56,044 nucleotides of DNA from Prorocentrum cordatum (lineage: Eukaryota). A program made the position numbers and the translations under genes. Below, one piece after another: positions 31,909-53,674 of the stretch (the stretch's first letter is position 1; the number at the start of each line of letters is the position of its first letter). The notes beneath the pieces are model-generated. The model searched no databases and was not told where the DNA came from. It worked only from the letters and a program-made list of their open reading frames with translations. Where the stretch lies: positions 62,001 to 118,044 of the forward strand of contig CAUYUJ010000116.1 of assembly GCA_963575745.1 (NCBI GenBank). The letters run 5' to 3'.

Positions 31909-33711
31909 GATGTTTTGAATCCCCTGTAGGGGGACAGGCCCGACTTCCCCCTGGGTCCGAACATCGCACTGGACGGAGGGGGCCCGGGGAGGGGGGGGGG
32001 CCCTGGGGAGGCGGGGGCACGAGCTCGGCAACGCACCGCGGGGGCGATCTCCGGAGCCTCCAGAAAGCCCCAAGACGGCCCGATGAGCGCCGAGACGGTC
32101 CAAGAGAGCGTCGAGACGGCCCAGGGCACAGTGGGGCTTGATTGGACAGGACACCCGAGAGTTGTTTTTCCCATCGTACTCAAGGACCACATCCCAGGAA
32201 TAATTTCGATCACCAGGGAAACGTGTCGAAACAGTGTCGAAACAGTGTCGGACGAGTGTCTCCCAGGGCCCGACACGTGAAAACCCTCGAGTTTCGGTGC
32301 TTTTTCGGTGCTCGAAATTCTTCCTGGTGGTCAAGGCTAAAGTAAGTTGGAACGTCATAACCCGAGAGGACACAAGACTTTTCCGACGGCAGCGCGGCCC
32401 AAGAGCACCAAGGGGCATGCGTGTTGCATGGGTCGGGATAGACGATACACAAGCGTACCCTCGATTCGGCATGGTCGACCTACGAATCCCTGCCGCCTGT
32501 AGCTCAGCAACGGTCCGGGACGACGTCAAGACGGCCTGCGAGGCACCCAAGACCACCCAAGAGTGCTTCCAGAGGGCCGCCGAGAGGGTCCCAAGAAACA
32601 AACCTCGCTAGTTTCGTTTCGGAAAATGCATTTCCAACATGCCGACCTCTTTCGACCCAACAGCTCCCAGGACGGCCCAAAGAGCCACCAAGATCGCCTC
32701 AAAACGGCCCAGGAGGCCCCCAAAAGGGCCCCAAGACGGCCCAGGAGGGCCCCAAGAGGGCCCAAGAGTGACCCACGACGTCCCCAGGCGCCCGCCTCGA
32801 CGACCAGCGAGGGCCTCAAGAGGGGCCCAAGAGGGGCAATACGAACTGACATCTCAAGTCTTTCCTGCCGTGATGGCCCCAAGAGCACCCCCAGTGACCC
32901 CCTGGCCCAAGAGACCCCCGAGTCCCCAAAAAGCCAATCAGATCCCCTCAAGAGCCCTCCAAGAGGCACCTTCGAGGCAGTCAAGCAGACCTTCATGTAC
33001 GTCCCCCGAGGCTTTTGATCCACAGGCCAGGCACAGTGGCACGACGCTTTAAGAATTCTTGGTTATGGGATCCCGCAGGATTGCGTAAGCCTGTCTTGAA
33101 TCAGGCTGCAAAATCGATGCCCCCAGGGAAGGGGTCAAGCGAGCAGAGACAGATGGCTCGCTCCAGAAGCCCCGAGTATCCAGGAACAAGTGTGCCTCTC
33201 TCAGCTCGGGCACGCGCAGGAGCGACCCTGGGCAAGAGTGACCCTCGGTGCGCGGCTTCTGGGCGGTCCCGCGGGGGACCCCAACGCGAGCGCGCAATAC
33301 GCTACGTAGTATCGCGTCGAGTTTGGCGATCGGGGAGGAGGAGGAGGAGGAAGAAGAGAAGGAACATGAGGAGGACCAGGAGGGTGGGATGAGGAGGAGG
33401 AGGAGGAGGAGGAGGAGGAGGAGGAGGAGGAGGAGGAGGAGGAGGGTGGGAGGAGGAGGAGGAGGAGAAGGAGCAGGAGGAGGGTGGGAGGAGGAGGAGG
33501 AGGAGGAGGAGGGGGAGTAGGAGGAGGAGGAGGATGATGAGCAGGAGCCCTGGTGGGCCCTTATCAAGGAGGTTACTCCGGCGAAGGATCACTCCTAGTC
33601 TTGCGTGCAGCCGACGCTTCCCCAGGGGCGGCCCCTTCCACCCCGAGCAGCTTTTTCCCGCGTCCGCCCCGGGGGCCCGCGAGGACCCCTGGAGGCCGAG
33701 CACGGCCAGAC

Positions 33712-35913: not shown

Positions 35914-36051
35914 CTCGAGAGCGCCAGGCGCCCCCTCGCCGACCCGGGCGCCTCGCCGCCCCCGTGGTGCAGGCCAAAGTGCACGGGGATCTTCTCGGCC
36001 TCCGCGCCCTGAAGCCAGCTGATCTCCCGAATGGTGATGTTGAGCAGGCTC
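35914..36051 (-). CDS. Host gene exon (SLLNITIREISWLQGAEAEKIPVHFGLHH...), donor position uncertain
   Basis: Pyrimidine tract then CAG|G; GC3-rich; phase 2 matches exon 43038-43070. Confidence 0.55.
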
Positions 36052-36298
36052 CTGTCCGGCAGGGTGGAGGAGGAGGAGGAGGAGGAGGAGGAGGAGGAGG
36101 GAGGGAGGAAGAGGAGGGAGGGAGGGAGGAGGGAGGGAGAGGGAGGGGAGGGAGGGGAGGGAGGGAGGGAGGGAGGGAGGGAAGGGAGGAGGAGGAAAGG
36201 AGGAGGAGGAGGAGGAGGGGGAGGAGGAGGAGGAGGAGGAGGAGGAGGAGTAGGAATAGGAATAGGAACCAATGGCGATGCCAATCCCAAGACTTGGG

Positions 36299-36610
36299 CT
36301 ACCCACGGCCTCGCTGGGCCTTTTCGGCCTTGCTGAGGACCTTGGGGGGGAGCCCTTCGTGAATTCTCCTGAAATACACACGTCCTGTGGCTCCGAGGGT
36401 GTCCGTGCAAGGCTTTGCTAGCGAACATAGCTGCTTGTCAGCTATCGCCCCACACTTGCCACAGAACCATACATTCAGAGACGGGTGGAAGTTGAGGTGG
36501 TGGGAATGGTGCAGCCAGCCCCCCCCGACATGGATTCTCCCTCCGACTGGAGGGGAGTAAATCAGCCCATTCACGTTCACCAAACTGTGACACTCAGTCG
36601 CATGGTGGCC
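36299..36610 (-). CDS. LINE ORF2 C-terminal Cys/His zinc-finger segment (frameshifted from the RT ORF)
   Basis: HHSHHL..WFCGKCG..LAKPC follows RHQL..CLRC of the RT ORF; stop at 36299. Confidence 0.65.
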   Translation of the reverse strand, partial: GHHATECHSLVNVNGLIYSPPVGGRIHVGGGWLHHSHHLNFHPSLNVWFCGKCGAIADKQLCSLAKPCTDTLGATGRVYFRRIHEGLPPKVLSKAEKAQRGRG

Positions 36611-39600
36611 AGTGACGCAGAGCCGCGGCACCGAAGGCATCTCTTTTTACAGTCGGACAGCTGATGCCGAGACATGAGAGCAGCAACGGCAGGAGCAGAG
36701 GGGGGAGGCGGGGGAGGGGGAAGCTTAGGGCCTCCGCGCAGCACACCACCGCGCTCACGCTCCAACTGCTTTTCCTTGGCAAGACAGTCAACCGCAGCTC
36801 GCAGCAGCCTGAGGCGCACGAGCCGTGCACGGCGCTCGTGTAACAGCAATCTGCATCGTTCTGCCTCGAGCACGCGCGCCTGGACGGCAGCCAGTCCCGC
36901 TAGCTCGTCCACCACTGCATTTCCTATAATCAGTTGGCGGATGCCTTGGCCAGCTGCCATCTGGCTGGCCGTCAAGTGAGAATGAGTGAAAAGGACCGAC
37001 ACATGATGGGGCGGGCGGTGAGTCATCAGCTGCCCGATGGCCGCCCAGAGGTCAGCGTCCGCTCCCCTGGGCTGAAGATATCTCTGCTCGTACCAGCCTG
37101 TGACAACATCTTCGAAATCGGTGACAAAAGTGAGAAACTGCGTGGTGGCCCAGAGGGCCAGGTGCAAGCACTTCAGCTCACCCCTGGCCACCACCTGCCG
37201 TCGTCCGCACAAGGGCCCAAAGATGGAGCCCCTAGGGACGATGGCAGGCTCCACACACTCGAAGCATGTGATGGCTAGGCCAACTCTCCGCAGCCTGGGG
37301 CACCTACTGTCTGGGCCCCCGCTGGCGTCGCCGGAAATCATGACGGGTCGCTCGGCCGAGCCAGGCCCAAAAAGTCCAGCCTCGAGCGTATGGCCGCCAG
37401 TGAACTGCCAGGCGTCCTGTGACGGCGGTGGGCTCACCTCCGTCCAATGCGCAGGGAGCAGCCCGCGCAGCCAGAACGCCTCCGCAGTGTTGCACTGCGT
37501 CACCGCCTGCATGCACAAGTCTTCCGAGTCGGTGTAGGGCTTGGCATCTGTGTTACACCTGCACTGCCAGTACCGATGTAGTGGGGTTTCGACCTCCTCG
37601 TTGCAGCGGTCGCAGATGTCCGTGCCCTGGTATCTCTTGAGCTCCTGCTTCTTCCTCTGCTTATTCCATATCCAGCCTGGCGCGACCATCACCATGATTT
37701 CGCACAACCTCTTGCCGTTGGGCACCTGGGACAAGTGCCTCAGTAGCTGGATGCACGAGGTGTTGTCGACGCCCTGCTCCAACCCCCCGCCGCAGAAGTG
37801 CTTGGCAGCCTGGGTCCAGAGCTGGGTCTGGCAGGCCTGGCGCACGTCGTCCAGGAGATGATCGTGGCGGTCCACGTGGGGGTTTCCCGTGTAGATATGA
37901 TCTGGGAACTGCCACTCCCCACTGCGATCAGGGCCGACTTGAAACGACCACGTATCGGGAGCATGGGGAGTCCAGCCCAGCCTCAGCAGCGTGTGAATGA
38001 TGGCCCCAGTAGGGCCTTTGATGAGCCGTACCTGAGCTGGCACAGGAACTGCCTGCATCTGCTGCACAATAGCGGGCCACGCACGACGGACCCCCGCCCT
38101 GATCCCGGGGCAGTCGCGCCAAATCTTGAGCCAAGTGTCCACCGTCTGGGTCGGGCAGAGCACTCCAGGATCAGCTCCAGGGGCCCTGAGCGCCAGGACG
38201 GTGGTGAGGCATCGGCCTCGCGCTGGCGAGGCACAAGCCTGCGCAAGCCTGCGCCTGCTCCTCGTGAGCTGCTCGCCGAAGAGCCCGTGGACCTGGTGCC
38301 CGTAGAGACCCGCGGGTAGACCGCCTTGCCTCTGGAGCTTGGTCATGGCCCCGTACTGCTTCGTGGCTCTCGTGAACCTTCGGATTTTGACGCTCATGAG
38401 CCGATGCTTCTTCTCGCGCAGCACCCTGGTCGCTCGCGCTCTCCTACCGCACCCGAAATCGATGCCCAGGTAGGTGGCGTGCGTCACTGGCTTAATCACA
38501 AAGCCTGCACGTCGGACCTGGCGAGCAATAGCCCGAGCATCATGCATCGAACTGCAAATGACAACTGATTTATCGGCAACCTTAAGCTTGCGCTGCTGCA
38601 GCTCACGGCACGTCATGATGATGCCGCTGGCGAGCTCCGAGCGGATGGCCCTGCTAGACCCCTTGAATGTCTCCGACACGTCGTCGACCCATAGCATCGC
38701 CCCCATCCTCGGATGGGCTGTGGTGACCGTGGCCATGACATGGTGGGTCATCATCTTGGCGAAGCGGGTTCCTGACCGCAGCCCTTGCACGACGCTGAGG
38801 AGCGGGTCAAACAAAGTCGACACAGTCTTGTCCTGCTCCAAGCAGCGTGGTGCCACGCATTGAAGAAGTTCTAAGTACAATATCACTGGTGGAAAGTGAA
38901 GCCGCAGCGCGGCTGAAACGAGGATGTCCCACGGGATGCTGTCGTAGAACGTGGCGATATCCAGCATCCCGTGGCCGTGCTGCATGCCCATGGTGAAAGC
39001 CAGCTCCTCATCGAGCGCTCGCAAGAAAGCCTCCTGCAGGCAAGAGTTGCCTGGGAGGGCGGCGTCCCAGTGGCGAGCGCTCTCAGCCGACCAGGTCTGC
39101 ACGGACGGCTCGCGCATCAAAGACCAGAGTCGGCCGAGCATCGACACGAGGCCGATCGCCCGATCGCCCCCAGTCTTTTTGGGAGTGAGCTTCCCAATCA
39201 CTGCCAACGTCTGGGCGGGCCAGGCCAACGTGGCCTCGACCGCCTCCAAGATCAAGAGCAGCTCCGCCTGGCCTTCGACTGGGAGCCTCTGGTAGCCGGT
39301 AGGCGTGACCATGTCGATGCCCATGCCTGCCTTGGCCTTCATACGTGAAGCAGCCCTGGTAACGTCCGTCACCTCGAGCTGCGGGAGCGGCTCGTCGACC
39401 GCTCGAACTCGAATCTGTCGAAATAGTTCTCTCACGTCCTGCAGCTTGGGGGCCGAGGGTGCCCACAGCTGCTGGTACTTCTGCGCCTTTGCGTCCATGA
39501 TGTCCTTCGGATGGTACACCAGCTGCTGGCCCGCCACGATCTCGGTAGGAGGCAGAGGACCCTTCTTCAAAGATTTGTGGAGAATGCCGTTCGCTTCTGG

Positions 39601-40356
39601 CTCCACCACCCACGCACGGAAGTCGTGGATAGCCGACAGCACCGCAAGCCGCTGGGCCAGCTGCATGATCTTCCGAGCGTTGTGAACATACGACTCCAAC
39701 ACCGCTGGGTTGATCTGGCACTTCGCCTCGAGAAGCCGTAACCATTCTTCCCATGGAGGGTCACGGCCACCTCGGAGCACGGCATGAGCGCCCTCGGGGC
39801 AATCTCCAGCTGCCTTGAGCGCCGCCTCCTGGTAGCACTGCAACTGATGAGTGCCACTCCCGCGCTGGAGGTGCCGGCTGACTCCTGCGATCAGCGCGTG
39901 GACCTGGGTCCACCACTGGGCTCTCTGGTCACGGAGGTGGATCTTTCGTCGGTGAGCCGCCTGCCTGACTGGGCCCTCGACCCAACGAGCCACGTGCGCA
40001 CGTCTCGAGCGAGGGAGCTCCATGCCATGGTGTCTGGTGATGCTCAGCTCGACTGTGGAGATCCACGCTGCATACATTCCTGAAACAACAGTAGGGTGTG
40101 AGGCCTCTAGCCGAAAAGCTACGGACTTGAGGAGGGACGGAGAAAGGGATTGAATGCAGTCCTGCCCCGAAGCAAAACCCACCTCCCGTCTGCTCTCGAC
40201 CCATACCTCGCTAGGGATCTGGAAAGTGGCCGACGCGGAGGGGGAGCTTTCAGGGGCCTGTAAAGGACTGGTCCCAGGATCACAAAACTGAAAATCATGC
40301 TGGTTTAAATCGGGATTGAAATCTTCCCTCATCTTGGTGGGGGGGGGGGCTGGCAC
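36577..40356 (-). CDS. LINE ORF2: reverse transcriptase + CCHC knuckle + RNase H
   Basis: LDIATFYDSI, VVQG, WVDD, YLG; CDRC-x7-H-x4-C; RNH GDASG..GEL..VTD..HSH..GNAVVDELA. Confidence 0.93.
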   Translation of the reverse strand: MPAPPPTKMREDFNPDLNQHDFQFCDPGTSPLQAPESSPSASATFQIPSEVWVESRREVGFASGQDCIQSLSPSLLKSVAFRLEASHPTVVSGMYAAWISTVELSITRHHGMELPRSRRAHVARWVEGPVRQAAHRRKIHLRDQRAQWWTQVHALIAGVSRHLQRGSGTHQLQCYQEAALKAAGDCPEGAHAVLRGGRDPPWEEWLRLLEAKCQINPAVLESYVHNARKIMQLAQRLAVLSAIHDFRAWVVEPEANGILHKSLKKGPLPPTEIVAGQQLVYHPKDIMDAKAQKYQQLWAPSAPKLQDVRELFRQIRVRAVDEPLPQLEVTDVTRAASRMKAKAGMGIDMVTPTGYQRLPVEGQAELLLILEAVEATLAWPAQTLAVIGKLTPKKTGGDRAIGLVSMLGRLWSLMREPSVQTWSAESARHWDAALPGNSCLQEAFLRALDEELAFTMGMQHGHGMLDIATFYDSIPWDILVSAALRLHFPPVILYLELLQCVAPRCLEQDKTVSTLFDPLLSVVQGLRSGTRFAKMMTHHVMATVTTAHPRMGAMLWVDDVSETFKGSSRAIRSELASGIIMTCRELQQRKLKVADKSVVICSSMHDARAIARQVRRAGFVIKPVTHATYLGIDFGCGRRARATRVLREKKHRLMSVKIRRFTRATKQYGAMTKLQRQGGLPAGLYGHQVHGLFGEQLTRSRRRLAQACASPARGRCLTTVLALRAPGADPGVLCPTQTVDTWLKIWRDCPGIRAGVRRAWPAIVQQMQAVPVPAQVRLIKGPTGAIIHTLLRLGWTPHAPDTWSFQVGPDRSGEWQFPDHIYTGNPHVDRHDHLLDDVRQACQTQLWTQAAKHFCGGGLEQGVDNTSCIQLLRHLSQVPNGKRLCEIMVMVAPGWIWNKQRKKQELKRYQGTDICDRCNEEVETPLHRYWQCRCNTDAKPYTDSEDLCMQAVTQCNTAEAFWLRGLLPAHWTEVSPPPSQDAWQFTGGHTLEAGLFGPGSAERPVMISGDASGGPDSRCPRLRRVGLAITCFECVEPAIVPRGSIFGPLCGRRQVVARGELKCLHLALWATTQFLTFVTDFEDVVTGWYEQRYLQPRGADADLWAAIGQLMTHRPPHHVSVLFTHSHLTASQMAAGQGIRQLIIGNAVVDELAGLAAVQARVLEAERCRLLLHERRARLVRLRLLRAAVDCLAKEKQLERERGGVLRGGPKLPPPPPPPSAPAVAALMSRHQLSDCKKRCLRCRGSASLATMRLSVTVW

Positions 40357-40594
40357 GAATTGGGGAGGGGACTATGCTGTGCCATTGCTGGATCAGTCTT
40401 ACACTGCCTCTCCTGCCGACACGCTCCAACGCTGCCCGCCGAGCCAGGTTCAGGAAGGATGGGGTGAGACGGGGGGGCGAGGGCATTACTCAACTCTCCG
40501 TCTGCGCAAAAGTTCAGCTGGTCAGCCCACGGGTCGCCCTCTTCGCCGGGTCAACAATCGAGAGATTCTTCGACCTCATCGGGAGGGGCCTGAC

Positions 40595-41587
40595 CTACAC
40601 CCTCCACTGACGACGACGGGACCCCAGGGCTACGAAAGCAATCCCCAAACATTCTTGAAAGTGCGACCTACGAGCCTCCAGGGCCTCTTGCTGGGCAATC
40701 GCCTGGCGGGCTCTAGAAACGCTAGATTTAGAACCTGCAGTGGGCTCCCTACGGGGTCTCGGGGCTTGAGGAAGCCTGGGGGAGACCACGAGGGAGCGGG
40801 TGAGAAGCTGAAGGCCAGAGCTACGAAGCTGGAGGGCCAGACCTTGATGAGGCTTCCAAGGAACAGATCGCACGGCACTGATTGTTTTCAGAAACGGCGA
40901 GGCCTCGGGGCTGCACACCACATAGTCTAGCACCTCGCCCCGCCCCTGACTATTGGCACACGCGCCTGCAGGGCCAGCTGTGCGGACGATGGCGTTCAGC
41001 TTGGAAACGAACATGCTGGCTGCGAGGATGTCGGGCTCCATGTTGAAGTCCCCCACGATCATCCATGGGGGCCTGACTGCCCGAAGGAGACCTCCGAGCC
41101 GTTGAAATCTGATCTTGTTGTGACCCGTCATCATGATACTGGGCAGCGCGCATAGTACCACTACTATGATAGAACACCCAGCGAGATGCAAGACCATAGG
41201 AAGAAACCCGTCTAGGCTGGCCTGGCCCGCCTCACGCAAATGCCCTGCAGCGATCTTGGCCTCGGGTAAGACGTGGGCCTGAAGGTGCTGCTGAGCCATG
41301 AAAAATTCGCCGCCCTCATTCGCACGCCCCTCGAACCCTGCTGCCACAGCCTTGTCCGAGGGGCGCGCCGCATTGTAGTGAAGACGAAGATGTGCATATC
41401 GTGCCTTCTTGTCCCAATCCTTGAGCTCCGACTCGTCATGGATGCGAGTCTCTGCCCAGGCCCAGAAGGAGCACGTGCAATAATTTAATAGAAGGTATTG
41501 CCACACTTTGGGAGTGAAGGCCGTGACATTCGCGTAGAACAATGTCGCGGAGCCCTCAGTGTGGTCGTCGTCAGCTGCATCAGATAG
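40595..41587 (-). CDS. LINE ORF2: APE-like endonuclease (no ATG before the domain; in frame with ORF1)
   Basis: FYANVT, AET, VGDFN, LDYVV, KPH motifs. Confidence 0.88.
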   Translation of the reverse strand, partial: LSDAADDDHTEGSATLFYANVTAFTPKVWQYLLLNYCTCSFWAWAETRIHDESELKDWDKKARYAHLRLHYNAARPSDKAVAAGFEGRANEGGEFFMAQQHLQAHVLPEAKIAAGHLREAGQASLDGFLPMVLHLAGCSIIVVVLCALPSIMMTGHNKIRFQRLGGLLRAVRPPWMIVGDFNMEPDILAASMFVSKLNAIVRTAGPAGACANSQGRGEVLDYVVCSPEASPFLKTISAVRSVPWKPHQGLALQLRSSGLQLLTRSLVVSPRLPQAPRPRREPTAGSKSSVSRARQAIAQQEALEARRSHFQECLGIAFVALGSRRRQWRV

Positions 41588-42700
41588 TCAAGAGGTGGCA
41601 CCGTCGCCACCCCCCTTGGCCTGGGCCTCGGCAGCCGCCTTGGCCGCTGCCGCCTCGGCCTTGGCCGTGAACTTGGCCGCCGACAGCTTCTTCGCGTCCT
41701 CCTCGATCTGCTCGGACGCCGCCTTGCTCTCGTCGGTCTGGGCCGTCTCCGTCGCGGGGCTCTGGCTAGCTGCTGCTTCGCCTCCTGCAGCAGGCGGCTT
41801 GGCCTCCTGGCCTGCCGCGGCCTTCGCTCCTCCATCATCGCCCTTCCTCTTCTTCCGCATCCTGTCATGAATGTCGCTCTTCATCTGCTTGGCCCTGTCG
41901 AGCCAGGCCTTGATCTCATTCTCCTTGCCGTTGAGGTCTGACTTGGCCCCCTTGAGCTGGTTGTGAAGCGTCTCCAGGGCCGCCCGCTCCTCCTTGGAGC
42001 AGTCACCCGCCTCGACCATGTCGTCCAGCGAGCTGAACAGCGCCTCATCCCACTCGACCGTGAACATTGCCGACGTGGCGGCGGTCGGCGAAGGGGGCCC
42101 TACGCCCTCGGCCCGAGCGACTGCCTGGGCCGCCGCCTTCTTGGCCGCTGCCGCCTGCGCCAAAGCCACCGCCGCACGAGCCTCCTTGGCCTCGGCAGCC
42201 TCTAGGCTCTGCCTCAGGCGCAGCACGTTGTCGACGCACTGCGAGTGGTGGTGCTCCGCATTCTTCCAGGCACCTTCGGTCTTGCGGAGCACCTCTGCTG
42301 GCGAAACTGCAGCCTCGGTGTCAGCCTTGGCCTGAGTGCTGATCTTCTCAATCTGCTGCTTGAGCGCGGCCTGCAGCGCCTCGTCCTTTGTGGCCTGGGC
42401 AGCCTGCTCCAGCAAGTCGGTGACGGTGGTGCTGGAGCTGCCCTTGGCCCCGTAGCCCTTGCCGCTCCGCCGCCCGCCACGCGGGGAGTGGCTGCGCGTG
42501 CGCCCGCCCTTGGCGTGGTCGGGCGCTGCGGCGGGGGCCGACTCTGCCTGAACTTCGTCCTCCCAGTGCACCTTGCGGCCCGCTGGCTTGAACAAGATAA
42601 TGTGAGTGCCGCAGGCCGAACAACTGCCGCCCTGCTTCATGATGATGGAGTTCCACTCACACCTGCGGCACTGATCACAACGAGACCACAACTGCACCAT
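41588..42700 (-). CDS. LINE ORF1 (370 aa; N-terminal CxxC-x15-CxxC Zn ribbon, coiled coil, basic patches)
   Basis: ATG at 42700 (MVQLWSRCDQC...CSAC), Ala/Glu/Lys-rich helical body, directly upstream of APE. Confidence 0.82.
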   Translation of the reverse strand: MVQLWSRCDQCRRCEWNSIIMKQGGSCSACGTHIILFKPAGRKVHWEDEVQAESAPAAAPDHAKGGRTRSHSPRGGRRSGKGYGAKGSSSTTVTDLLEQAAQATKDEALQAALKQQIEKISTQAKADTEAAVSPAEVLRKTEGAWKNAEHHHSQCVDNVLRLRQSLEAAEAKEARAAVALAQAAAAKKAAAQAVARAEGVGPPSPTAATSAMFTVEWDEALFSSLDDMVEAGDCSKEERAALETLHNQLKGAKSDLNGKENEIKAWLDRAKQMKSDIHDRMRKKRKGDDGGAKAAAGQEAKPPAAGGEAAASQSPATETAQTDESKAASEQIEEDAKKLSAAKFTAKAEAAAAKAAAEAQAKGGGDGATS

Positions 42701-42839: not shown

Positions 42840-42860
42840 CTTGCACCCAAATTGCTTGAG
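42840..42860 (-). other. Dinoflagellate spliced-leader relics at the LINE 5' end
   Basis: CTCAAG (3' end of DinoSL) + CAATTTGGGTGCAAG (11/15 to relic CCATTTTGGCTCAAG). Confidence 0.55.
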
Positions 42861-43037
42861 AGGAGGAGGAGGAGGAGGAGGAGGAGGAGGAGGAGGAGGA
42901 GGAGGAGGAGGAGGAGGAGGAGGAGGAGCAGCAGGCTCCGTCCGCGGCGATTGGCGCCTCCGGTGAGGGTTGGGGCGCGAGGGCGCATGCGGGCGAGGAG
43001 GCGAGGAGAGGGGAGGCCGCGGGCAGGCCGGAGAAGC

Positions 43038-43890: not shown

Positions 43891-45356
43891 CGACTCTCAC
43901 ACAACATCCGCAGACCCCCGGGGCGTCAAAGCCTGTCCACGGCGTGGGCGCCCAGAGGCCTGGCCCCACGTCCTTCGAGCAGACTCGTCGTCACGAGTCG
44001 TTGTGTGACGGCCCCTGCGACCAGCAACACAGGCAGAAATCTCGCTAACAGCGAACATGTGCGCATCCGCGCCCTCGCGGTCTGGATTCCGGATCGCGAT
44101 CCCGCGCTGGGCATCCGCGAACAAAACATGCCCCGTGTCCGCGGGGTGGCGCCTCAAGGGCCTGACCCGTGAGGCTGCGGATACGGATTCGTCGTGTTAC
44201 GAATCGGCAATTGCACAAAAAAGAAACGGGGAAAAACAATCCGCAAAAATCAACTTACGCAAACCTACTCCGGTGGCAATTCATGGGAGCCCCCATGCCA
44301 ACGTGTTGGCCCTTGCGAATCGACGCTGGGGGCGCTCATCGACGCGAAACCGATGTTGGTCGACGCTGAATCGGAGCTATCTCATCGACTACCAGACGCC
44401 AGTCGACGCTAGAGACGGAATTAAGAGGGCACCTCCGGCTCCCAAAATATGCGACCGAAACCTGACATTGCCACGAAGACCACGACCGTTGAGAGGATAG
44501 GCCGGCATGCCTCGCGAGAGAGCTCACAGGGAAGCGGGAGGCAGCGAGCAGGGAGGGACCGTTTCCCCATGCAGGCGCCTTGTCGGGGCCCTCGGAGGAG
44601 GTAAAAGAACCGAGAGACCCAAAGATCCGAGGCTCCGGCAAAGCTCGGAGCGGCCAGTTTTTGCCAGAGGGGCCCAAGGCGAGGTCAGCAAGAAAGACAA
44701 ATCCCTGGTTGTCCAGTAAGGTTGTGGATTCACTGTGGGCTTCTGAGGGGGGGCGATGCTCATCGAGGCTCCCGCTCCGTTGATCGATCGAACGGCCCGA
44801 AACGCGTCCAAGAGAGCCCCCCGAGAGCCCCAAGAGGCCCTAAGAAGCACAGAAAGGGCTCCAGAGGCACCAAGAGACCCCAAAGAGGCCCTAAGCGGCC
44901 CCAAGAGGCGCCCAAGAGGCATCCGATACGCTCGAAGAGAGTCTGAAGATCACCAAGAGGCCCCCAAGACGTTCCAAGACGAAGCAAGATGCCCCCCAGG
45001 TGGCTCAGGAGGCTCCGAAGAGCCGCCAGGAGGCCCCCAGGAGGCCCTGAAGAGACCCCGAGAAACATCCCAAGAGATTCCGAGGAACATCCAAGCAGCC
45101 TCTGGCCCAAGGAGGATCCCCGCGCTCTCCAAGTGATGCTACTCTCCCCCGATGATGGCAATTCCCCTGGACATCGTTCCTAGATGGGCTGGTGGGGAAA
45201 CGCAAAAGGTTAAGAAGAATGATAGACGCCGGCATCCCGCCAGCTTGCAAACTGCCCAAGTCACTTGCCACCCGCTGAATTCGACAGCGAGCCTATCAGC
45301 CGAGGTGCCAGGCAGCCAACCGACAAGAAAAGGAACCAACCAACTGATCAAGCACA

Positions 45357-45401
<45 letters not shown>

Positions 45402-46399
45402 GCACACGCGCACACACACACATTCACACACACACGCATACACACACACACACACGCATACACATGCATGTTTGAATGTTTCCCCCAACCTAGGGGCTCT
45501 TGCTTCTGACTGTGGAAGTGGTCCTGTCTGCAGGTTTGGCGGCCATGTGGTGGCCGTCGCCGCCCCGTCACCCCCTCGTCGCCGCCCGACGTTCCTCGTG
45601 GTCCTGGGGATGGCCGTTCTCTACACGTCCCTGGCCCTGGCCATCCTCCGATTGGCACGCCAGCACGCTGTCTCCGCCGGCACCCTCCCGTCGGGGTCTG
45701 CACGATCTCTGAGCGGCTCGGTCTGCTCCTCCCTCTTGTCGAGCTGTGCCCTCAGTGTCCTGGGAACCAGGCCCACGGCCTTCGAGGTGGGCGATGCATC
45801 GCCGGCGACGTCGGCGATACATCGGCGATGCGTCGGCAACGTCGGCGCTGAGAAAATCGGGCACCACCTCAAGCAGCATCGCTGATGCGCGATCTCACAA
45901 CGCTACCTGCTCGGACCCCATCTGGGAGGCCTAGTAGAAGACACTTGCACCATCGCGAGAAATCACGACCAGAGCCCCGGGGCCCCACCTGCGTCATTGC
46001 TCGAGTCTGATCTATCTGTGAGGGCCCCAGGACACGAAACCAGGAGAGAAAACGCCCGCTGTGAAAACAATACAACGCCAAGATCGCAGGGTTTCATACT
46101 TGAGCAGGGGCCGACCGTCCCGGCATTCCTATAGGCCTACCACGACATGCTCTTAGACCCAAACAATAGCTAAACAAAAAACAATGTTCTTATAACAGGA
46201 AAGCCGATGTGTCAACACAAGGCAGTCTCGGCAAGAAAGGCTATAAGAACACTTAGCGCAGACCACAGAAAAGGTCCTCCTCATAACATTCCTTGGTGGG
46301 CCTCTAGGCGAGCCAGGACGCTTCGAAATTGCTTGACATACCTCTCTAGGGCTCCGGGGTCGAGCTGGGCCCCAGAGCGTCCTGGGGCTCCGGGGTCGG

Positions 46400-47370
46400 A
46401 GGAGGAGGAGAAGGAGGTGGAGGGGGAGGAGAGGGAGGAGGAGGAGGAGGAGGAGGAGGAGGAGGAGGAGGAGGAGGAGGAGGAGGAGGTGAGTGAGGAG
46501 GGAGGAGGAGGAGGAGGAGGAGGAGGAGGAGGAGGAGGTAGGAGAGAGGAGGAGGGAGGAGGAGGAGGGGAAGGGGGGGGGAGGGAGGAGGAGGGAGGAG
46601 GTATGGGACTGAGCGGCCTAGAGCGTCCTGGGCAACAGGGGCCCAGGCCCGCGGCGTCGAGGCGGGCGACCTGCCCCGCCGCGAAGGCCGCCGCGACGCC
46701 CCCGGCGCCCACCGTGGGCTCCGGCAGGGGGGCGGAGCCCCGGCCTCGAAAAAAAAAAAAAAAAAATCGAAAAAAAGGTACGCGAGCCGGGGGCGCGGTC
46801 GGCCCCGAGCCTTCCGGGGGACTGGGGAGCAGAAACGCGTTCTGGGGGTCGTGGCCAGCCTGGGGGACAGGATGGGGAGGAGGGGGAGGAGGAAAAAGAC
46901 GGAGGATTAGTAGGAAGGAGGAGGAGGAGAGGAGGGGAGGGAGAGGAGGAGGACAGAGAGGAGTAGAGGGAGGTGAGGAGAGAGGAGAAAAGGAGGAGGA
47001 GGAGGAGGGAGGAGGGAGGAGAAGGAAGGAGGAGGAGGAAGAGAAAAGAGGAGGAGGAGGAGGGAGAAGAGGAGGAGGAGGGGGGACCCCAAAAAGGATG
47101 GGGGAGGTAGGGGGAAGAGGAGGAGGAGGAGAGGGAGGAGGAGGGAGGAGGAGGAGAAGGATGAGGAGGAGGGAGGAGGATGAGGGAGGGAGACAAAGGA
47201 GGAGGAGGAAGAGTGGGGAGGAGGCTGAAGGAGGAGGAGGAAGGAGGAGGAGGAAGGAGGAGGAGGTGGAGGAAGGGGAGGAGAGAGAAGGAGGAGTGAT
47301 GAGGAACGAGGAGGGAAGAGGGAGAGAATGGGGGGAGGAGGAGGCTGAGTAAGGGAGGAGGAGGAGGAGC
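46400..47370 (+). repeat. (GAG)n purine-rich tracts
   Basis: Direct. Confidence 0.9.
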
Positions 47371-47523
47371 GGACGGCGTAGCGGAGGAGGGCGGCGGGGC
47401 CTGAGGCGGTGGGGAAGTCGGAGAGAGCCTGCTCCGGGCCCCTGTGGGCGTTGTAGCGCAGTTTTCGGAAGAGGGGACGGCCAGCTTCCACCCAGGCCCA
47501 AGGACCGCCAACAAAATCGAGTA

Positions 47524-47697
47524 CAGCAGGTGCCCGACCACAAGAAACGTTCCACAAGAAGCCCAACCCTGAGACCCCAGCACGTCCATTGATTGTGGTG
47601 TGGGAACGTCACGGTTCCCATAGCAAAACAATCGAAACCCAAGAAACCAGGGCACCCTGGAAGCAAGCAGGGTGTTTCTTGGCATGGGTCTCCACTG
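47524..47697 (+). mobile_element. Tc1/mariner-type MITE family B, copy 2
   Basis: TA|CAG...CACTG|TA; closely similar to 54603-54775. Confidence 0.75.
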
Positions 47698-48379
47698 TAC
47701 AGCCAGCGTGCTGGCGCCACGCGAGGCTGCACGCGCGTCGCTGAGAGCAGAAGCCAACAGGCGCACACCACGGCAGGCCCCTCCCTGCACGCGACTTCGG
47801 AGGGGGTAGAGGGAAGAATAGCGGGGTAGGGGAGAAGGGACGCTAGGCTCCACTCGCCGCCGCAGCGCCAGCGTCACGAGGCGCAAGATGAGTCAGCATC
47901 GGATCGGCAAATCGGATCGAATCGACATGTGCGCATCGGATGGGACTGCATCGGCACGGACCGACATCGAACCGGATCGGCGGGGCCAGGGTGCACAACA
48001 GCGCCGTACCGAAATCGAAATGGCCGAGATTGATTTCGCCCGGATCGATCGGATCGAGGTGAGCCTCACGCGGCACCGTCCGCCGCCACCTCGGCACCGC
48101 CCGATCCGGCGGCGCCCCCCCAGGAGACCCAGGTCGCATTTGGAGGGGGGGTCCGGTCTTTTAGGGGGGGGGGGGGCGATAAACAAGGGACTTGGAGTAC
48201 CATGTTTGGACACCCTCCAGGACCCTCCCCCTCGCGGGCCTCCTGGGAGCCTCTTGGGGCCTCCTGGGGGCCTCTTGGGGCCAAGGCTCGATCTCTGGTT
48301 TTGCTCCCTGTGGGGCCCCTCTTGGGCATGTCCTGGAGCACTCTTGGGCCCTTTTGGGGGCCTCCTGGGCCGTCTTGGG

Positions 48380-48538
48380 TTAGGTCGGGCATGTCCCCAT
48401 ACTGGCGGCTCTTGAACCACAAATAACACATAGTCGAAAAATAACCAAAAATATTCAAAAATGATAGAGCAATCGTCCCCAGATTATTTTCAAATTATTC
48501 CTGCATATTCCTCTTGTGGAGGGACACGCCCGACTGAA
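48380..48538 (+). mobile_element. hAT-type MITE family A, copy 9
   Basis: TIRs; TSD GTCTTGGG/GACTTGGG (7/8). Confidence 0.8.
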
Positions 48539-49065
48539 GACTTGGGCCCTCCTGTGGGCCTCCTGGGCCGCCTTGGGTCCTTCTTGAGTTGTTCGGCTCC
48601 GAGGGCCGAAAAACTATGCACCGTAGCATTTCCGATCGGGCGTTGGCAGAACTGGGTTTAAAAGGACCTGGTTTAGTGATGTGTACTGGGGGGCGCCCCC
48701 CCGCCCCGTTCCACTAACCGGAACTGCCGTGACCCGAAAAAGACAGGCCACGGCTGGCCTGGTTGAGTGACCCTGGCCAATTTAGGAGCTCCAGGGCCCT
48801 ACTACTAACCTGGTCCCCTATACCTGGGGTCCTGGCCTTAGTGGGCCCTGGAAACGACAGGGCCGTGTTTTTTACCGGTTCCGTTTCGCCGTTTCTTTGC
48901 CGGTACCGACGACGTTTTTGTTTACCTGTTCCGTCGCCGTTTTTGGACCGGTTCCGGCTCCGGTTCCAATCCTGGAGCCGTTATTTTGCCGTTTCCGGTC
49001 GCCGTCTGGCCACGGCGAGCCTCGGCCTCGAGCAGGCTCGCCAGGAGGAGGAGGAGAAGGAGGAG

Positions 49066-49281
49066 GCGGTCCCAAAACCGGGCGGTGGCAGACCGTGCGG
49101 TGACCCCTCAGAATCTCGAAGGACCTCACCGCACGGTCCGTCACCATACGGCTTTGGGCCCTCGGATGCCCCAGCTGTCCGAGACATCCTCGGAAAACGA
49201 CCCAAGTCCCAGAGCCGTGCGGTGGCCCAAACCCCTACCGACTCACAACACGGTGTGGTCACGACACCGTTGAAGGGCCCC
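49066..49281 (+). mobile_element. MITE family F, copy 2
   Basis: Similarity to 43685-43890. Confidence 0.55.
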
Positions 49282-49782
49282 GAGCCCCCTCGAGCCCGAA
49301 GTGTTCCTTGGGTCAGCGCCTTGCCTGATTCCCGAGCGTGCTGTGGCCAAGCACTGCCACCAGAAGAATAACATAACGATTCCCAATCCTCGATCCTCAC
49401 TCGAGATTGCATTTTTTGTTGTTTCTGATAGGGGTCGTTACCAGGGGGTGGCCAGGTAATGGAAGCGGTTGAGAGGGGCGGGGCACTTCGGGGCGGGAGC
49501 GCGATACGATCGCCATGATACGCGTGCGGACACCAATATGTGTGGGGGTGTCCAGGCCACCGCCCCTATGCACGATCGTTACCGCTTCCTGGGGAAGGCT
49601 GGGTAACGACGGTTACGCATCATAGGTCTTAAACAAATCTCCTTCCCAGACGTATCACGCCCTGGCGAACAAGCAAAGCCGAACTTATGAACGCTGCTAT
49701 CGGCCTCGAGGGTCCATCGCAAGGTTCCGGGACCGTCAGAAAACGCCTCAGGGGGGGAAACAACAACAACAACAACAACAAC

Positions 49783-51495
49783 AATCACTTTACCCGAACG
49801 CTCAGTGTTCTCATCAGTGCCAGGGTTTTCATGCGACGCCAGCCAATACCCCCACTTTGTGGGGGGGCAGTGCAAGCTCTACCAAATATCCACACGACTC
49901 TTCGCCACCACCCACACCCAGCTTCCCGCCCTATGACGTTCGGACACTTCACTTCGTGGCCTGCGGACAACCGTGGCTACTACACTGGCGTGGAGTACAC
50001 ACCCACAGAAGTTGTTAGGACAGCGCGCGCGGGTAGAAATTTTGAAAAGTCGTGCAGGTGTTTTTCGAGGACCTACGGTGCGATTCTTGTGATTTTATGA
50101 TGCGCGGTGCTAAAATTCTTAAGAAGCCCAATGGTTTTTGGAGATTTCGGCGTGCGCGCGCGAAGAAAAAACGAATGTGTCCCGCATTGTATTATTTGAC
50201 AGGGATGATGGCCCTGGCAGGTGCGCAACCGTTGTCGCAGAAGTTCGAAAAAAGTTGCTCGCAAAAGCCCGATTGACAGAAATGTTGAAAAAGAGTTGGG
50301 TTTCCTACGAATCCGCAAGAGCGCGCGGGATGAGATTTTGACATTTTTTTTGTTGAAAAACCATTGGTTTTTTGATGTTTTTATGTTAAAATCGCTCCGA
50401 ACACTAAGCTTTTGGAAGGATTTCGTCTTGCGCGCGCGAATGTCCACTTTACCTTATATTTTGCAAGGGATTCTTGAAATTTGATTATATTAGAACAAGA
50501 AATGTCATTTTATAGTGTTTTTTTTGCAAGGGAAAACGGATTACAACAAAACAACCGGATCTGGATCACATCGTTTTACCTGAGGCTTCCTCACGAAAAT
50601 GATGAAAATGTAGCTGCGGCCTAGGCGGCGCAGGGGGGGCGCGCACCAGGGGGCCCAACAATAATTATTCTTTAGAATAAATCATGTTCAACAACAACAA
50701 CAACAGCAACAACAGCAACAATCATTTTACCCGAACGCGTGGTGTTCTCCCCAGTGCCAGGGTTTTCATACGACACCAGGCAATACCCCCACTTCGTGGG
50801 GGGGCATTACAAGCTCTACCAAATATCCAAACGACTCTTCGCGACCACCCAAACCCAGCTTCCCGCCCTATGACGTTGGGACACTTCACTTCGTGTCGTG
50901 CGGACGACCGTGGCTACTACACTGGCGTGGGGTACACACCCACAGAACCCAATGGTTTTTGGAGATTTCGGCGTGCGCGCGCGAAGAAAAAACGAATGTG
51001 TCCCGCATGGTATTATTTGACAGGGATGATTGCCCTGGCAGGTGCGCAACCGTTGTCGCAGAAGTTCGAAAAAGTTGCTCGCAAAAGCCCGTTTGACAGA
51101 AATGTTTAAAAAGTGTTGGGTTTCCTACGAATCCGCAAGAGCGCGCGGGATGAGATTTTGACATGTTTTTGTTGAAAAACCATTGGTTTTTTGATGTTTT
51201 TATGTTAAAATCGTTCCGAACACTAAGCTTTTGGAAGGATTTCGTCTTGCGCGCGCGAATGTCCACTTTACCTTATTTTTTGCAAGGGATTCTTGAAATT
51301 TGATTATATTTGAACAAGAAATTTCATTTTATAGTGTTTTTTGCAAGGGACAGCGGGGGGGAACAAAACAACCTGATCTTGATGACATCGTATTACCTGA
51401 GGCTTCCTCACGAAAATGATGAAAACGTGGCTGCGGCCTAGGCGCGGCGGGGGGGGCGCGCACCAGGGGGCCCAACAATAATTATTCTTTAGAAT
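49783..51495 (+). repeat. Tandem pair of a ~0.9-kb AT-richer unit (49783-50678; 50720-51495) separated and flanked by (AAC)n
   Basis: Colinear similarity; second copy lacks ~120 bp. Confidence 0.9.
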
Positions 51496-51784
51496 TAATA
51501 ATGCTCAACAACAACGACAACAACAAGGTACAGGCCGGCATGGTCCCCCCGGGGTCCGGGGCTTCACTTCCCGCGTCCGCCACAGTGGAGGAGGCCGGTC
51601 CCGCCCCCCCGGTGAGTCGGAGGGGGGGGGGGGGAACAACACAACACAACACAACGAATTCTGTACGAATTCTGTACGAATTCTGTACGAATTCTGTATG
51701 AATTCTGTATGAATTCTGTATGAAGCCTACAAACTCCCTACGGATTCCCATCGGAATCCGTTCGGGACCCTTTAGGAGTCTTTG

Positions 51785-52573
51785 GATCCCTCCAGGGACT
51801 CTATAGAATCCCTGTGGATCCCTCCAGGGACTCTATAGAATCCCTGTGGATCCCTCCAGGGACTCTATAGACTCCCTCCAGGGACTCTATAGAATCCCTG
51901 TGGATCCCTCCAGGGACTCTATAGAATCCCTGTGGATCCCTCCAGGGACTCTATAGACTCCCTCCAGGGACTCTATAGCATCCCTGTGGATCCCTCCAGG
52001 GACTCTATAGAATCCCTGTGGATCCCTCCAGGGACTCTATAGAATCCCTGTGGATCCCTCCAGGGACTCTATAGAATCCCTGTGGATCCCTCTAGGGACT
52101 CTATAGACTCCCTGTGGATCCCTCCAGGGACTCTATAGACTCCCTGTGGGTCCCTCCAGGGACTCTATAGAATCCCTGTGGATCCCTCCAGGGACTCTAT
52201 AGAATCCTTGTGGATCCCTCCAGGGACTCTATAGAATCCCTGTGGATCCCTCCAGGGACTCTATAGACTCCCTGTGGATCCCTCCAGGGACTCTATAGAA
52301 TCCCTGTGGATCCCTCCAGGGACTCTATAGAATCCCTGTGGATCCCTCCAGGGACTCTATAGAATCCCTGTGGATCCCTCCAGGGACTCTATAGAATCCC
52401 TGTGGGTCCCTCCAGGGACTCTATGGACTCCCTCCAGGGACTCTATAGAATCCCGGTGGATCCCGCCAGGGACTCTATGGACTCCCTCCAGGGACTCTAG
52501 AGAATCCCTGTGGATCCCTCCAGGGACTCTATAGAATCCCTGTGGATCCCTCCAGGGACTCTATAGACTCCCT
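51785..52573 (+). repeat. 32-bp minisatellite CCAGGGACTCTATAGAATCCCTGTGGATCCCT (22-bp variants)
   Basis: ~25 units. Confidence 0.95.
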
Positions 52574-53430: not shown

Positions 53431-53671
53431 CCGATGGAACCCTGTAGGGGTTCTAAGGGACTCCGATGGAACCCTGTGGGGTTCGAATGGGAGTCCGATG
53501 GAACTCTGTAGGGGTTTTATGGGCGTCCTATGGAACCCTGTACGGGTCGTGTGGGAATCCTATGGAACCCTGTACGGATCCCACAGGATCCTCCTGTAGG
53601 GGTGCGTTGTGTTGTGTTGTGTTGTTCCCCCCCCTCCCCCCCTCCCCCCCGGGGGGGCTTGCCCCGCCTGT

Positions 53672-53674
53672 ATC

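What the first reader, a model, noticed from the sequence alone, without database searches (positions are those of the whole stretch)
41516..41600. ORF1 and ORF2 in frame across a single UGA-CUA: candidate programmed readthrough in a LINE
Seen: the minus strand reads ...GCC ACC TCT TGA CTA TCT GAT GCA GCT GAC GAC GAC CAC ACT GAG GGC TCC GCG ACA TTG TTC TAC GCG AAT. ORF1 (..GATS*) continues as LSDAADDDHTEGSATLFYANVT directly into the first APE motif with no in-frame ATG. A hairpin (GAGGG-CU-CCGCGACAUU / AAUGUCACGG-CCUUC, 41516-41557) starts ~30 nt downstream. Known: UGA-CUA is a leaky-stop context in Sindbis virus and in animal readthrough genes, while characterised LINEs use reinitiation or coupling (L1, SART1). 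Inference: ORF2 is made as an ORF1-ORF2 fusion by readthrough, like gag-pol.
Basis: partly seen in the sequence, partly recalled or inferred. Interest (0 to 1): 0.8.

Follow-up and report, generated by a model that had tools for sequence, protein, structure and literature searches.

The report
In-frame UGA between LINE ORF1 and ORF2
A dead but full-length copy of a jumping gene has its two genes in the same reading frame, separated by one leaky-looking stop codon and with no start codon for the second gene, so stop-codon readthrough is a plausible but unproven way of making the second protein.

Summary
On the minus strand ORF1 (42700-41588) ends at TGA-CTA. The next 15 codons run in frame, with no ATG, into the first strand of an L1-type AP endonuclease (model pLDDT 83.6; best fold match human LINE-1 ORF2p).

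The stop is inherited, not a private mutation. 15 of 19 relatives with the ORF1 tail motif end 5-70 residues after it (window: 26), and one ends within a residue of the window's stop. The one sister contig over the junction shows no listed change at TGA-CTA.

Several diverged relatives carry ORF1 and the endonuclease as one open frame. Five diverged relatives start only at an internal Met after the first endonuclease motif. An AUG-less, in-frame ORF2 therefore looks like a family trait.

Against the reading:
- This copy is dead, with at least four ORF2 lesions.
- The hairpin is ordinary: 14% of the element's 42-nt windows fold as well. It starts at +34, whereas known stimulators start at +2 to +16.
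- I could not get DNA of any sister junction, so frame and context conservation are untested.

My odds: readthrough about 0.4, AUG-independent reinitiation about 0.3.

The parts
42930..42943 (-). 5' copy of the candidate target-site duplication (GGAC-GGAGCCTGCT)
   Evidence: The 10-mer GGAGCCTGCT occurs only twice on the window's minus strand, at 42939-42930 and 36052-36043, flanking the element.
42860..42928 (-). Perfect (CTC)23 at the 5' end of the element
   Evidence: TRF: period 3, 23 copies, 100% matches. Sequence read.
41588..42700 (-). ORF1, 370 codons plus TGA. It has an N-terminal CxxC...CxxC mini-domain, long helices, KKRK and a C-terminal helix carrying KLSAAKF.
   Evidence: Translation. 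Sister fragment P0008 (89% identity) starts at the same Met. No Pfam family. AF2 model: pLDDT 73.4, helices 93-197, 219-287 and 323-362.
41585..41590 (-). ORF1 stop TGA (41590-41588) followed by CTA (41587-41585)
   Evidence: The sister contig in run X1 lists differences at 41566, 41574, 41582, 41596, 41598 and 41603 but none here.
41543..41587 (-). 15-codon in-frame linker (LSDAADDDHTEGSAT). It has no stop and no ATG and is predicted disordered at its start.
   Evidence: Residues 1-7 of the model are below pLDDT 50.
41578..41580 (-). Nearest ATG after the stop. It is out of frame with ORF2 and opens a 31-codon ORF.
41516..41557 (-). It overlaps the codons of the LFYANVT strand.
   Evidence: Energy -15.7 kcal/mol. 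14% of the element's 42-nt windows fold as well. It starts at +34 from the U of UGA.
40802..41551 (-). AP-type (EEP) endonuclease fold, model residues 13-262
   Evidence: AF2 model. Foldseek best matches are LINE-1 ORF2p/EN, TRAS1 EN, ExoIII and APE1. Pfam Exo_endo_phos is sub-threshold only (E 0.0057).
40651..40652 (-). 1-nt deletion in this copy. It shifts the endonuclease frame.
   Evidence: Sister proteins P0004 and P0160 continue in another window frame from about 40652. In X1, contigs making up 36.3 of 39 depth carry one extra base behind 40651, as does the one X2 contig there.
40551..40553 (-). In-frame TGA in the endonuclease-RT linker, in the frame that sisters use
   Evidence: Relative P0020 reads through the equivalent stretch.
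40339..40349 (-). C11 run where the frame changes again into the RT frame
   Evidence: This could be a mutation or a homopolymer assembly error.
36580..40371 (-). RT-containing ORF (1264 codons, stop to stop). It is in a different frame from the endonuclease.
   Evidence: tblastn with P0001 gives 31% identity over 1140 columns. Pfam RVT_1 is sub-threshold (E 0.0026).
36305..36598 (-). C-terminal Cys-rich part of ORF2. It is back in the endonuclease frame, so there is another frame break near 36590-36600. It ends at TAG 36304-36302.
   Evidence: tblastn with P0001. Three-frame translation.
36058..36255 (-). Imperfect (TCC)n/(TCCC)n 3' tail
   Evidence: TRF: 36066-36255, period 3, 60 copies, 82% matches. 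Sequence read.
36043..36057 (-). 3' copy of the candidate target-site duplication (GGACAGGAGCCTGCT)

Best explanation
The site is the genuine, inherited ORF1 terminator of a two-ORF, AP-endonuclease-type non-LTR retrotransposon. This full-length copy (42929-36058, with a target-site duplication) is itself dead.

In active members of the family, ORF2 has no AUG of its own before the endonuclease fold and lies in frame behind a single UGA-CUA. I think the likeliest way ORF2 is made is occasional decoding of that UGA by a near-cognate tRNA. That would give a small amount of ORF1-linker-EN-RT fusion protein next to abundant ORF1 protein, as in gag-pol.

Shown: the anatomy, the inherited stop, the lack of an AUG, the death of this copy, and the existence of fused relatives.

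Inferred: that the UGA is read through at all. The hairpin is not part of the proposed mechanism.
For: 1. The arrangement is in frame with an open, ATG-free 15-codon linker that leads into endonuclease strand 1.

2. The stop is a family feature.
- 15 of 19 distinct relatives with the RLSAAKF-type motif end 5-70 residues after it; the window ends 26 after (duplicates and one false match were dropped, see full report).
- In the tail alignment, P0095 ends within one residue of the window's stop, and P0006, P0009, P0021 and P0101 end within 4 residues.

3. A sister contig (depth 11.4) covers the junction with six nearby differences. None is listed in TGA-CTA, and no indel is listed there.

4. Fusions exist in diverged relatives.
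- P0096 reads RISEAKF, 27 residues, then VFGNVT in one frame.
- P0042, P0054, P0051 and P0061/P0162 are fused.
- Metagenome locus L002 has about 190 open codons of ORF1-like sequence running straight into the endonuclease.

5. Five mutually 32-46% identical relatives (P0026, P0027, P0116, P0151, P0128) start at the same internal Met just after the first endonuclease motif. Sister P0035 starts at the window's first in-frame Met. This is as expected if no AUG precedes the fold in those families either.

6. UGA-CUA is the type II readthrough context of Sindbis, o'nyong-nyong and PSIV (table seen in PMC13517186).

7. The nearest AUG after the stop is out of frame, which is awkward for simple reinitiation.
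Against: - No DNA of any sister junction was obtained, so conservation of frame and of CTA rests on one contig's table rows. That table is truncated (924 rows not shown).
- The copy carries at least four ORF2 lesions, so local details could be decay.
- The fused relatives with names are gene models of Prorocentrum cordatum. A gene model can splice a stop out. Only L002 is direct DNA, and it has its own in-frame TGA further upstream.
- 14 of 18 distinct relatives where the script found the first endonuclease motif start with M 1-35 residues before it, for example P0005 MTSLFYANVT. ORF2 may therefore have its own start in many lineages.
- No stimulatory structure is in the right place.
- By chance alone, this combination is expected in roughly 0.1-2% of ORF1 stops (my product of the rates and 1/3 for frame). 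This finding was picked out of a very large scan.
- In Tca2, a gag-UGA-pol junction with a pseudoknot did not direct readthrough in a reporter (abstract of PMC2194720).
Confidence: 0.4

Rival explanations
1. L1-like termination-reinitiation. Ribosomes terminate at the UGA, and some 40S subunits resume on a non-AUG codon in the linker, so ORF2 is made as a separate protein. The shared frame is inherited history or chance.
For: - Human L1 ORF2 is translated AUG-independently, perhaps by reinitiation (passage in PMC11485995; passage in PMC5972666).
- ORF2 here has no AUG before the fold.
- Start positions of ORF2 in relatives vary widely, as expected if the first codons do not matter.
- In-frame near-cognate codons are present in the linker, such as the UUG of LFYANVT.
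Against: - The nearest AUG, 8 nt after the stop, is out of frame and would capture reinitiating subunits.
- Reinitiation does not explain why several diverged relatives have ORF1 and the endonuclease fused in one frame.
Confidence: 0.3
2. Decay artefact. The subfamily that gave this copy had already lost a normal ORF2 start, for example through an indel between the ATG at 41580 and the endonuclease motif. The TGA-CTA, frame and missing ATG then have no translational meaning, and such copies spread in trans or not at all.
For: - This copy has a 1-nt deletion at about 40651, a TGA at 40553-40551 and two further frame breaks.
- It has Cys where sister P0035 has Tyr at two conserved positions.
- Relative P0067/P0155 starts MQ... 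16 residues before the motif. The window's out-of-frame ATG also reads MQ... at nearly the same distance.
Against: - The sister contig, at about four times the depth of the unshifted variant at 40651, shares the same junction with no indel listed.
- ORF1 is intact against P0008 and P0012.
- Five other diverged families also seem to lack an upstream AUG.
Confidence: 0.15
3. A nonsense mutation in what was a single fused ORF1-EN-RT gene.
For: - Fused relatives exist.
- P0017 has Lys where the window has the stop, then continues with a similar acidic stretch.
- This copy has another in-frame TGA at 40553-40551.
Against: - The stop position is shared within 0-4 residues by P0095, P0021, P0101, P0009 and P0006, which are only 37-40% identical to the window's ORF1 (P0021 and P0095 37%; P0006 40%, P0009 38%, P0101 37%; alignment).
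- 15 of 19 relatives terminate in this tail.
- The sister contig keeps the stop.
Confidence: 0.1

Closest known systems
Human LINE-1 (L1), whose ORF2 is translated by an unconventional, AUG-independent termination/reinitiation
   Same: - A bicistronic non-LTR element with an AP-type endonuclease at the N-terminus of ORF2. The best structural matches of the model are L1 ORF2p/EN.
- ORF2 translation does not depend on an AUG (PMC11485995 passage).
   Different: - L1 has a 63-nt spacer (PMC5972666 passage); here a single stop is followed directly by open frame.
- ORF1 here is a Zn-ribbon-like domain plus long helices with no Pfam match.
- Both Pfam domain hits are below the gathering score.
- The 3' tail is (TCC)n, not poly(A).
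Retroviral and alphaviral type II/III stop-codon readthrough (MuLV gag-UAG-pol; Sindbis nsP3-UGA-CUA-nsP4)
   Same: An in-frame single stop lies between an abundant upstream product and a polymerase. The hexamer UGA-CUA is identical to SINV, ONNV and PSIV (table in PMC13517186).
   Different: No structure sits at +2 to +16. The only hairpin is at +34 and is of ordinary stability. No functional test exists.
SART1 (Bombyx) UAAUG stop-start coupling
   Same: A LINE whose ORF2 depends on events at the ORF1 stop, with a downstream RNA structure required (PMC5972666 passage).
   Different: There is no overlapping or nearby in-frame AUG here.
Candida albicans Tca2 gag-UGA-pol (LTR element), and Zorro3 (LINE) with in-phase stops before ORF2
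   Same: An in-frame UGA or in-phase stops sit between the two ORFs of a retroelement. Bypass is needed and the mechanism is unresolved (PMC2194720 abstract; PMC3956500 passage).
   Different: Tca2 is an LTR element, and its junction alone did not direct readthrough. Zorro3 has four stops, not one.
Arabidopsis ATLN-L LINEs (Noma et al. 2000), recalled only
   Same: From memory: orf1 and orf2 lie in one frame, separated by an amber codon, and suppression was proposed. If my recall is right, this is a direct precedent for the idea.
   Different: I could not read the paper. I saw only its citation in the reference list of PMC3747384. It has UAG rather than UGA and belongs to the plant L1 clade.

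Membership tests
APE-type non-LTR retrotransposon (LINE) | AP/EEP endonuclease domain at the N-terminus of ORF2 | tested here: met
   AF2 model pLDDT 83.6. Foldseek: 296 PDB matches at E <= 0.001, and the best are LINE-1 ORF2p/EN and TRAS1 EN. By sequence the evidence is only sub-threshold: Pfam E 0.0057 and a PDB profile hit at E 0.24.
APE-type non-LTR retrotransposon (LINE) | Reverse transcriptase downstream of the endonuclease | tested here: inconclusive
   Pfam RVT_1 gives E 0.0026, 17.9 bits against a cut-off of 29.6; P0001 scores the same way. The PDB profile hits retron and group II intron RTs at E 0.03-0.1. A VDD motif is seen by eye. RNase H was not detected by any search.
APE-type non-LTR retrotransposon (LINE) | No LTRs, flanking target-site duplication, simple-repeat or A-rich 3' tail | tested here: met
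   A 14/15-nt direct repeat flanks the element, and its 10-mer core is unique to these two places. The 3' tail is (TCC)n. Self-BLAST found no repeat of the element's body in the window.
APE-type non-LTR retrotransposon (LINE) | Dispersed multi-copy family with diverged copies | tested here: met
   In run X1, 354 contig pieces were laid: 35 at >=99%, 60 at 95-99%, 105 at 90-95% and 154 under 90%. The HMMER search found 698 proteins at E <= 0.001.
Programmed stop-codon readthrough | Downstream ORF in frame, open from the stop, and needed for function | tested here: met
   the fold starts 12 codons after the stop, and no AUG occurs before codon 96.
Programmed stop-codon readthrough | Leaky stop context (UGA-C, UGA-CUA) | tested here: met
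   and the table in PMC13517186. The background rate of CTA after TGA in the window is 1.1%.
Programmed stop-codon readthrough | Stop, frame and context conserved among active copies and related families | tested here: inconclusive
   The stop position is conserved at protein level. One sister contig is consistent with it. Frame and context in other copies could not be read, because no genome is held and no sister DNA was found.
Programmed stop-codon readthrough | 3' stimulatory RNA structure about 8 nt after the stop (types II/III with structure) | tested here: not met
   The hairpin is at +34. 14% of the element's windows fold as well, and the 91-nt context has z -0.92. Rfam gave nothing relevant. 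Some type II sites need only the context, so this feature is not obligatory.
Programmed stop-codon readthrough | Fusion product demonstrated | not testable with these tools
   This needs a reporter assay, ribosome profiling or a junction peptide.
Stop-start coupling (SART1 type) | ORF2 AUG overlapping or next to the ORF1 stop, in the ORF2 frame | tested here: not met
   The only nearby ATG (41580-41578) is out of frame. The first in-frame ATG is codon 96.

The most novel reading that the evidence does not exclude
A clade of LINEs from marine protists makes its endonuclease-RT only as an ORF1-ORF2 fusion, by reading through a UGA-CUA stop. That is a gag-pol strategy in a non-LTR retrotransposon, without a dedicated RNA structure. 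Sister lineages (dinoflagellate gene models, metagenome locus L002) have dropped the stop and become single-ORF elements.
Probability: 0.35. Interest if true: 0.7.

Novelty: new variant of a known kind. Interest (0 to 1): 0.45.

Why it matters
How LINE ORF2 gets translated from a bicistronic RNA is unsettled even for human L1. This family offers a simple natural test.
- ORF2 has no AUG and sits in frame behind one stop in a known leaky context.
- Relatives exist with the stop absent.
- If frames agree across the organism's independent families, readthrough becomes the economical explanation and can be assayed with a short reporter.
- If frames are random, the family instead becomes a second, distant example of AUG-independent reinitiation.

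The ORF1 type (Zn-ribbon-like head, long helices, conserved RLSAAKF helix) and the element as a whole are also beyond the reach of current Pfam models.

Tried and rejected
Sister DNA:
- No whole genome is held.
- Self-BLAST of the element in the window found only low-complexity repeats.
- Two viral-contig scans found no relative.
- The metagenome scan gave 4 distant loci at 26-33% identity. L001 and L003 look frame-broken, L004 starts at the motif, and L002 is of the fused type.
- The genome-contig scan gave one spurious 15-residue match in a bacterium.

Protein word searches: searches found nothing. One search found two relatives.

Exact look-up of six window-encoded proteins: none is in the collection.

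Sequencing runs: no RNA holder is listed. X3 laid nothing, and X4 laid only 4 short pieces.

The 31-nt skip at 40336-40366 in one X1 contig: by my frame arithmetic it does not restore the RT frame, so I make nothing of it.

Other blanks:
- Rfam gave only a chance sRNA hit at E 0.24.
- The ESM Atlas gave no usable hit for ORF1.
- Earlier-findings look-ups were empty.

Rejected ideas:
- A variant genetic code or selenocysteine reading of the TGA. I rejected this without a test: relatives end at this point, and the other in-frame TGA at 40553 sits where a relative reads through.
- An intron between the endonuclease and the RT. Sister proteins read straight through with one extra base.

Literature: searches found no held paper that describes readthrough between ORF1 and ORF2 of a LINE. 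Most subscription papers are not held, so this is not evidence that none is in print.
Full report
**What is there.**
- The TGA is at 41590-41588.
- The stop-to-stop ORFs 43150-41588 and 41587-40598 abut in one frame.
- After the TGA, the first in-frame ATG is codon 96 (41299). The nearest ATG (41580-41578) is out of frame and opens a 31-codon ORF.

**The element.**
- ORF1 most likely starts at the Met at 42700 and has 370 codons. Sister fragment P0008 (89% identity) starts at the same Met, and more distant ORF1 relatives start a few residues before the same W-x-R-C motif.
- ORF1 has no Pfam match. Its model has mean pLDDT 73.4 and pTM 0.36. It shows a confident small N-terminal CxxC...CxxC domain, a disordered stretch, long helices (93-197, 219-287) and a C-terminal helix (323-362) that carries KLSAAKF. 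The last eight residues (GGGDGATS) are non-helical.
- The next ORF folds with mean pLDDT 83.6 and pTM 0.75 into an EEP fold. Its first strand is residues 13-20 (SATLFYAN), and residues 1-7 are below pLDDT 50.
- Foldseek gives 296 PDB matches at E <= 0.001. Human LINE-1 ORF2p (9k6i_A, 1.1e-10), the L1 EN domain, TRAS1 EN, ExoIII and APE1 are at the top.
- By sequence the domains are only sub-threshold: Exo_endo_phos E 0.0057 and RVT_1 E 0.0026.
- A relative, P0001 (1730 aa), carries EN, RT and a C-terminal Cys-rich part in one ORF. It aligns with the window at 29-39% identity in three pieces that lie in two frames.
- The element is bounded by GGAC(A)GGAGCCTGCT at 42943-42930 and 36057-36043. 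The 10-mer core occurs nowhere else on that strand of the window.
- A perfect (CTC)23 lies at the 5' end and an imperfect (TCC)n tail at the 3' end.
- The family is multi-copy. In run X1, 354 contig pieces were laid on it: 35 at >=99%, 60 at 95-99%, 105 at 90-95% and 154 below 90%.

**This copy is dead.**
- Sister proteins P0004 and P0160 (86-89% identity) leave the window's endonuclease frame at about 40652 and continue in another frame. In X1, contigs making up 36.3 of 39 depth, and the single X2 contig there, have one extra base behind 40651.
- In that frame the window has a TGA at 40553-40551, where relative P0020 reads on.
- The frame changes again in a C11 run at 40349-40339, and once more near 36590-36600.
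- The window also has Cys where sister P0035 has Tyr at two conserved places.
- ORF1, by contrast, is collinear with P0008 and P0012.

**Is the stop private or inherited?** I searched 1.84 billion representatives with ORF1 + (TGA read as W) + endonuclease. There were 698 hits at E <= 0.001, of which the best 150 are listed.

A script then scanned the 162 proteins stored at that point.
- I dropped four 90%-cluster duplicates of P0014 and one false match (P0075, an endonuclease-type protein).
- That left 19 distinct proteins with the RLSAAKF-type motif.
- 15 of them end 5-70 residues after the motif; the window ends 26 after.
- 4 run on for at least 128 residues (P0017, P0096, P0111, P0147).

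In a MAFFT alignment of 16 tails with the window:
- P0095 (37% identical) ends within one residue of the window's stop...SGDGVAAS against ...GGGDGATS*.
- P0021, P0101, P0009 and P0006 end 1-4 residues earlier.
- Five members of the P0014 cluster, from different contigs, all end ...SDDD(D)GL.

The one X1 contig over the junction (depth 11.4) differs from the window at 41566, 41574, 41582, 41596, 41598 and 41603. No row lists a change at 41585-41590 or an indel there. That table is truncated, so this is likely but not certain. I conclude that the stop is an old family feature and not a nonsense mutation of this copy.

**ORF2 starts in relatives.**
- The script found the first endonuclease motif in 18 distinct relatives. 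14 of them start with M 1-35 residues before it, for example P0005 MTSLFYANVT, P0067 MQAKPCTEGGDDECSKLLYANVT and P0001. With a gene caller that takes the first start codon after a stop, this is close to what chance gives, so it says little.
- Five relatives that are 32-46% identical to each other (P0026, P0027, P0116, P0151, P0128) all start at the same conserved internal Met just after that motif. Sister P0035 starts at the window's own first in-frame Met.
- Four of these five, and P0035, come from one EukProt set labelled Pyramimonas sp. CCMP1952. In that set, all 11 proteins I looked at begin with M even when they are plainly internal pieces. This pattern is what a stop followed by an ATG-free run into the fold would give.
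- Short contigs could imitate the pattern, so I count it as moderate support that an AUG-less ORF2 is a trait of several families.

**Frame in relatives.** Proteins that span the junction exist in several diverged families.
- P0096 reads RISEAKF, 27 residues, then VFGNVT.
- P0042, P0054, P0051 and P0061/P0162 are fused.
- P0017 has Lys at the window's stop column and then an acidic stretch like the window's linker.
- All those with names are Prorocentrum cordatum gene models, some also listed under Polarella glacialis. A gene model can splice a stop out.
- Direct DNA evidence comes only from metagenome locus L002. There, about 190 codons of ORF1-like sequence run without a stop into the endonuclease, and a TGA lies further upstream.
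- Spanning proteins are in frame by construction. Their existence shows that the two parts share a frame in those families and that a fusion is tolerated. It does not show that all families are in frame.

**Context and hairpin.**
- UGA-CUA is the type II context listed for Sindbis, o'nyong-nyong and PSIV in the table of PMC13517186 (passages seen).
- In this window, 1.1% of TGA triplets are followed by CTA and 17.8% by C. TGA is the commonest stop triplet. 77% of the element's 45-nt windows lack a stop.
- With 1/3 for frame, the whole combination is expected by chance in roughly 0.1-2% of ORF1 stops. Given the size of the scan, that is no proof.
- The hairpin is real as a prediction (-15.7 kcal/mol) but ordinary. 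303 of 2173 windows of the element fold as well, and the 91 nt after the stop have z -0.92.
- The hairpin starts at +34, while the structures in the same review table start at +2 to +16.
- It also overlaps the codons of a conserved protein strand.
- Rfam finds nothing relevant.

**Mechanism.**
- Shown: ORF2 of this family cannot be started at an AUG before its endonuclease fold, and it follows an inherited stop in frame.
- Inferred: how ribosomes get there.
- I put readthrough first, at about 0.4. The frame is shared with fused relatives, the linker is open and disordered (a plausible tether between the ORF1 tail helix and endonuclease strand 1), the context is a known leaky one, and the nearest AUG is in the wrong frame for reinitiation.
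- L1-like AUG-independent reinitiation comes next, at about 0.3. It is the only mechanism with experimental backing in a LINE (PMC11485995 and PMC5972666 passages).
- Decay of a subfamily that lost its start gets about 0.15.
- A nonsense mutation in a single-ORF element gets about 0.1.
- The Tca2 case is a warning: its gag-UGA-pol junction with a pseudoknot did not direct readthrough in a reporter (abstract).

**Comparison and novelty.**
- The element meets the structural definition of an APE-type LINE, although the RT is supported only weakly by sequence.
- It is not a SART1-type stop-start junction.
- It shares the stop context, but not the RNA structure, of viral readthrough sites.
- From memory only, Arabidopsis ATLN-L LINEs were reported with an in-frame amber codon between orf1 and orf2, and suppression was proposed. 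I could not read that paper and saw only its citation. If my recall is right, the idea has a precedent in plants.
- My literature searches found no held paper on readthrough in a LINE. Many journals are not held.

**What remains open.** No sister junction could be read as DNA. The decisive comparison is therefore still to be done: frame, stop and context in intact copies and in the organism's other families.

Noticed in passing
window 42860-42928 and 36058-36255: The element begins with a perfect (CTC)23 and ends with an imperfect (TCC)n/(TCCC)n tail, both inside the candidate target-site duplication. Similar CTC/CCT arrays are scattered through the window, for example at 12103-12249, 33391-33511 and 46435-46537. 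The family may use, or seed, such microsatellites.
   Followed up: partly
proteins P0004, P0008, P0012, P0035, P0160 versus P0017, P0042, P0051, P0054, P0061: The closest fragments (86-96% identity) carry the EukProt label Pyramimonas sp. CCMP1952, a green alga. More distant relatives (25-41%) are gene models of the dinoflagellates Prorocentrum cordatum and Polarella glacialis. This means either a wide distribution, horizontal transfer or a mislabelled or mixed data set.
   Followed up: no
P0051, P0054, L002 (about 1150-1230): In the fused relatives, a strongly hydrophobic stretch of about 18 residues (for example LVRLALRLVLLAVLATML in L002) sits just before the endonuclease. It looks like a signal or membrane segment. 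The window's family has an acidic linker there instead.
   Followed up: no
window 42580-42700 (ORF1 residues 1-40): An N-terminal W-x-R-C-x2-C-x2-C-E-W-N...C-x2-C-G mini-domain is conserved across ORF1 relatives and modelled with pLDDT around 90. It has no Pfam family, so ORF1 may be of an undescribed type.
   Followed up: partly
window 40336-40366: One X1 contig (depth 17.4) lacks these 31 nt, with GT..AG ends. The stretch includes the C11 run. By frame arithmetic the deletion does not restore the RT frame.
   Followed up: partly
window 1-35000 and 44000-56044: Outside the element, the window is mostly low-complexity and simple-repeat sequence (poly-Pro/Leu/Ser/Arg/Glu frames). I saw no ORF that looks like an ordinary gene in the stop-to-stop list.
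   Followed up: no
L001 and L003: In two distant metagenome relatives, the ORF1-like tail and the endonuclease lie in different frames. Both loci show other frame breaks, so this is not usable as evidence on frame conservation.
   Followed up: partly
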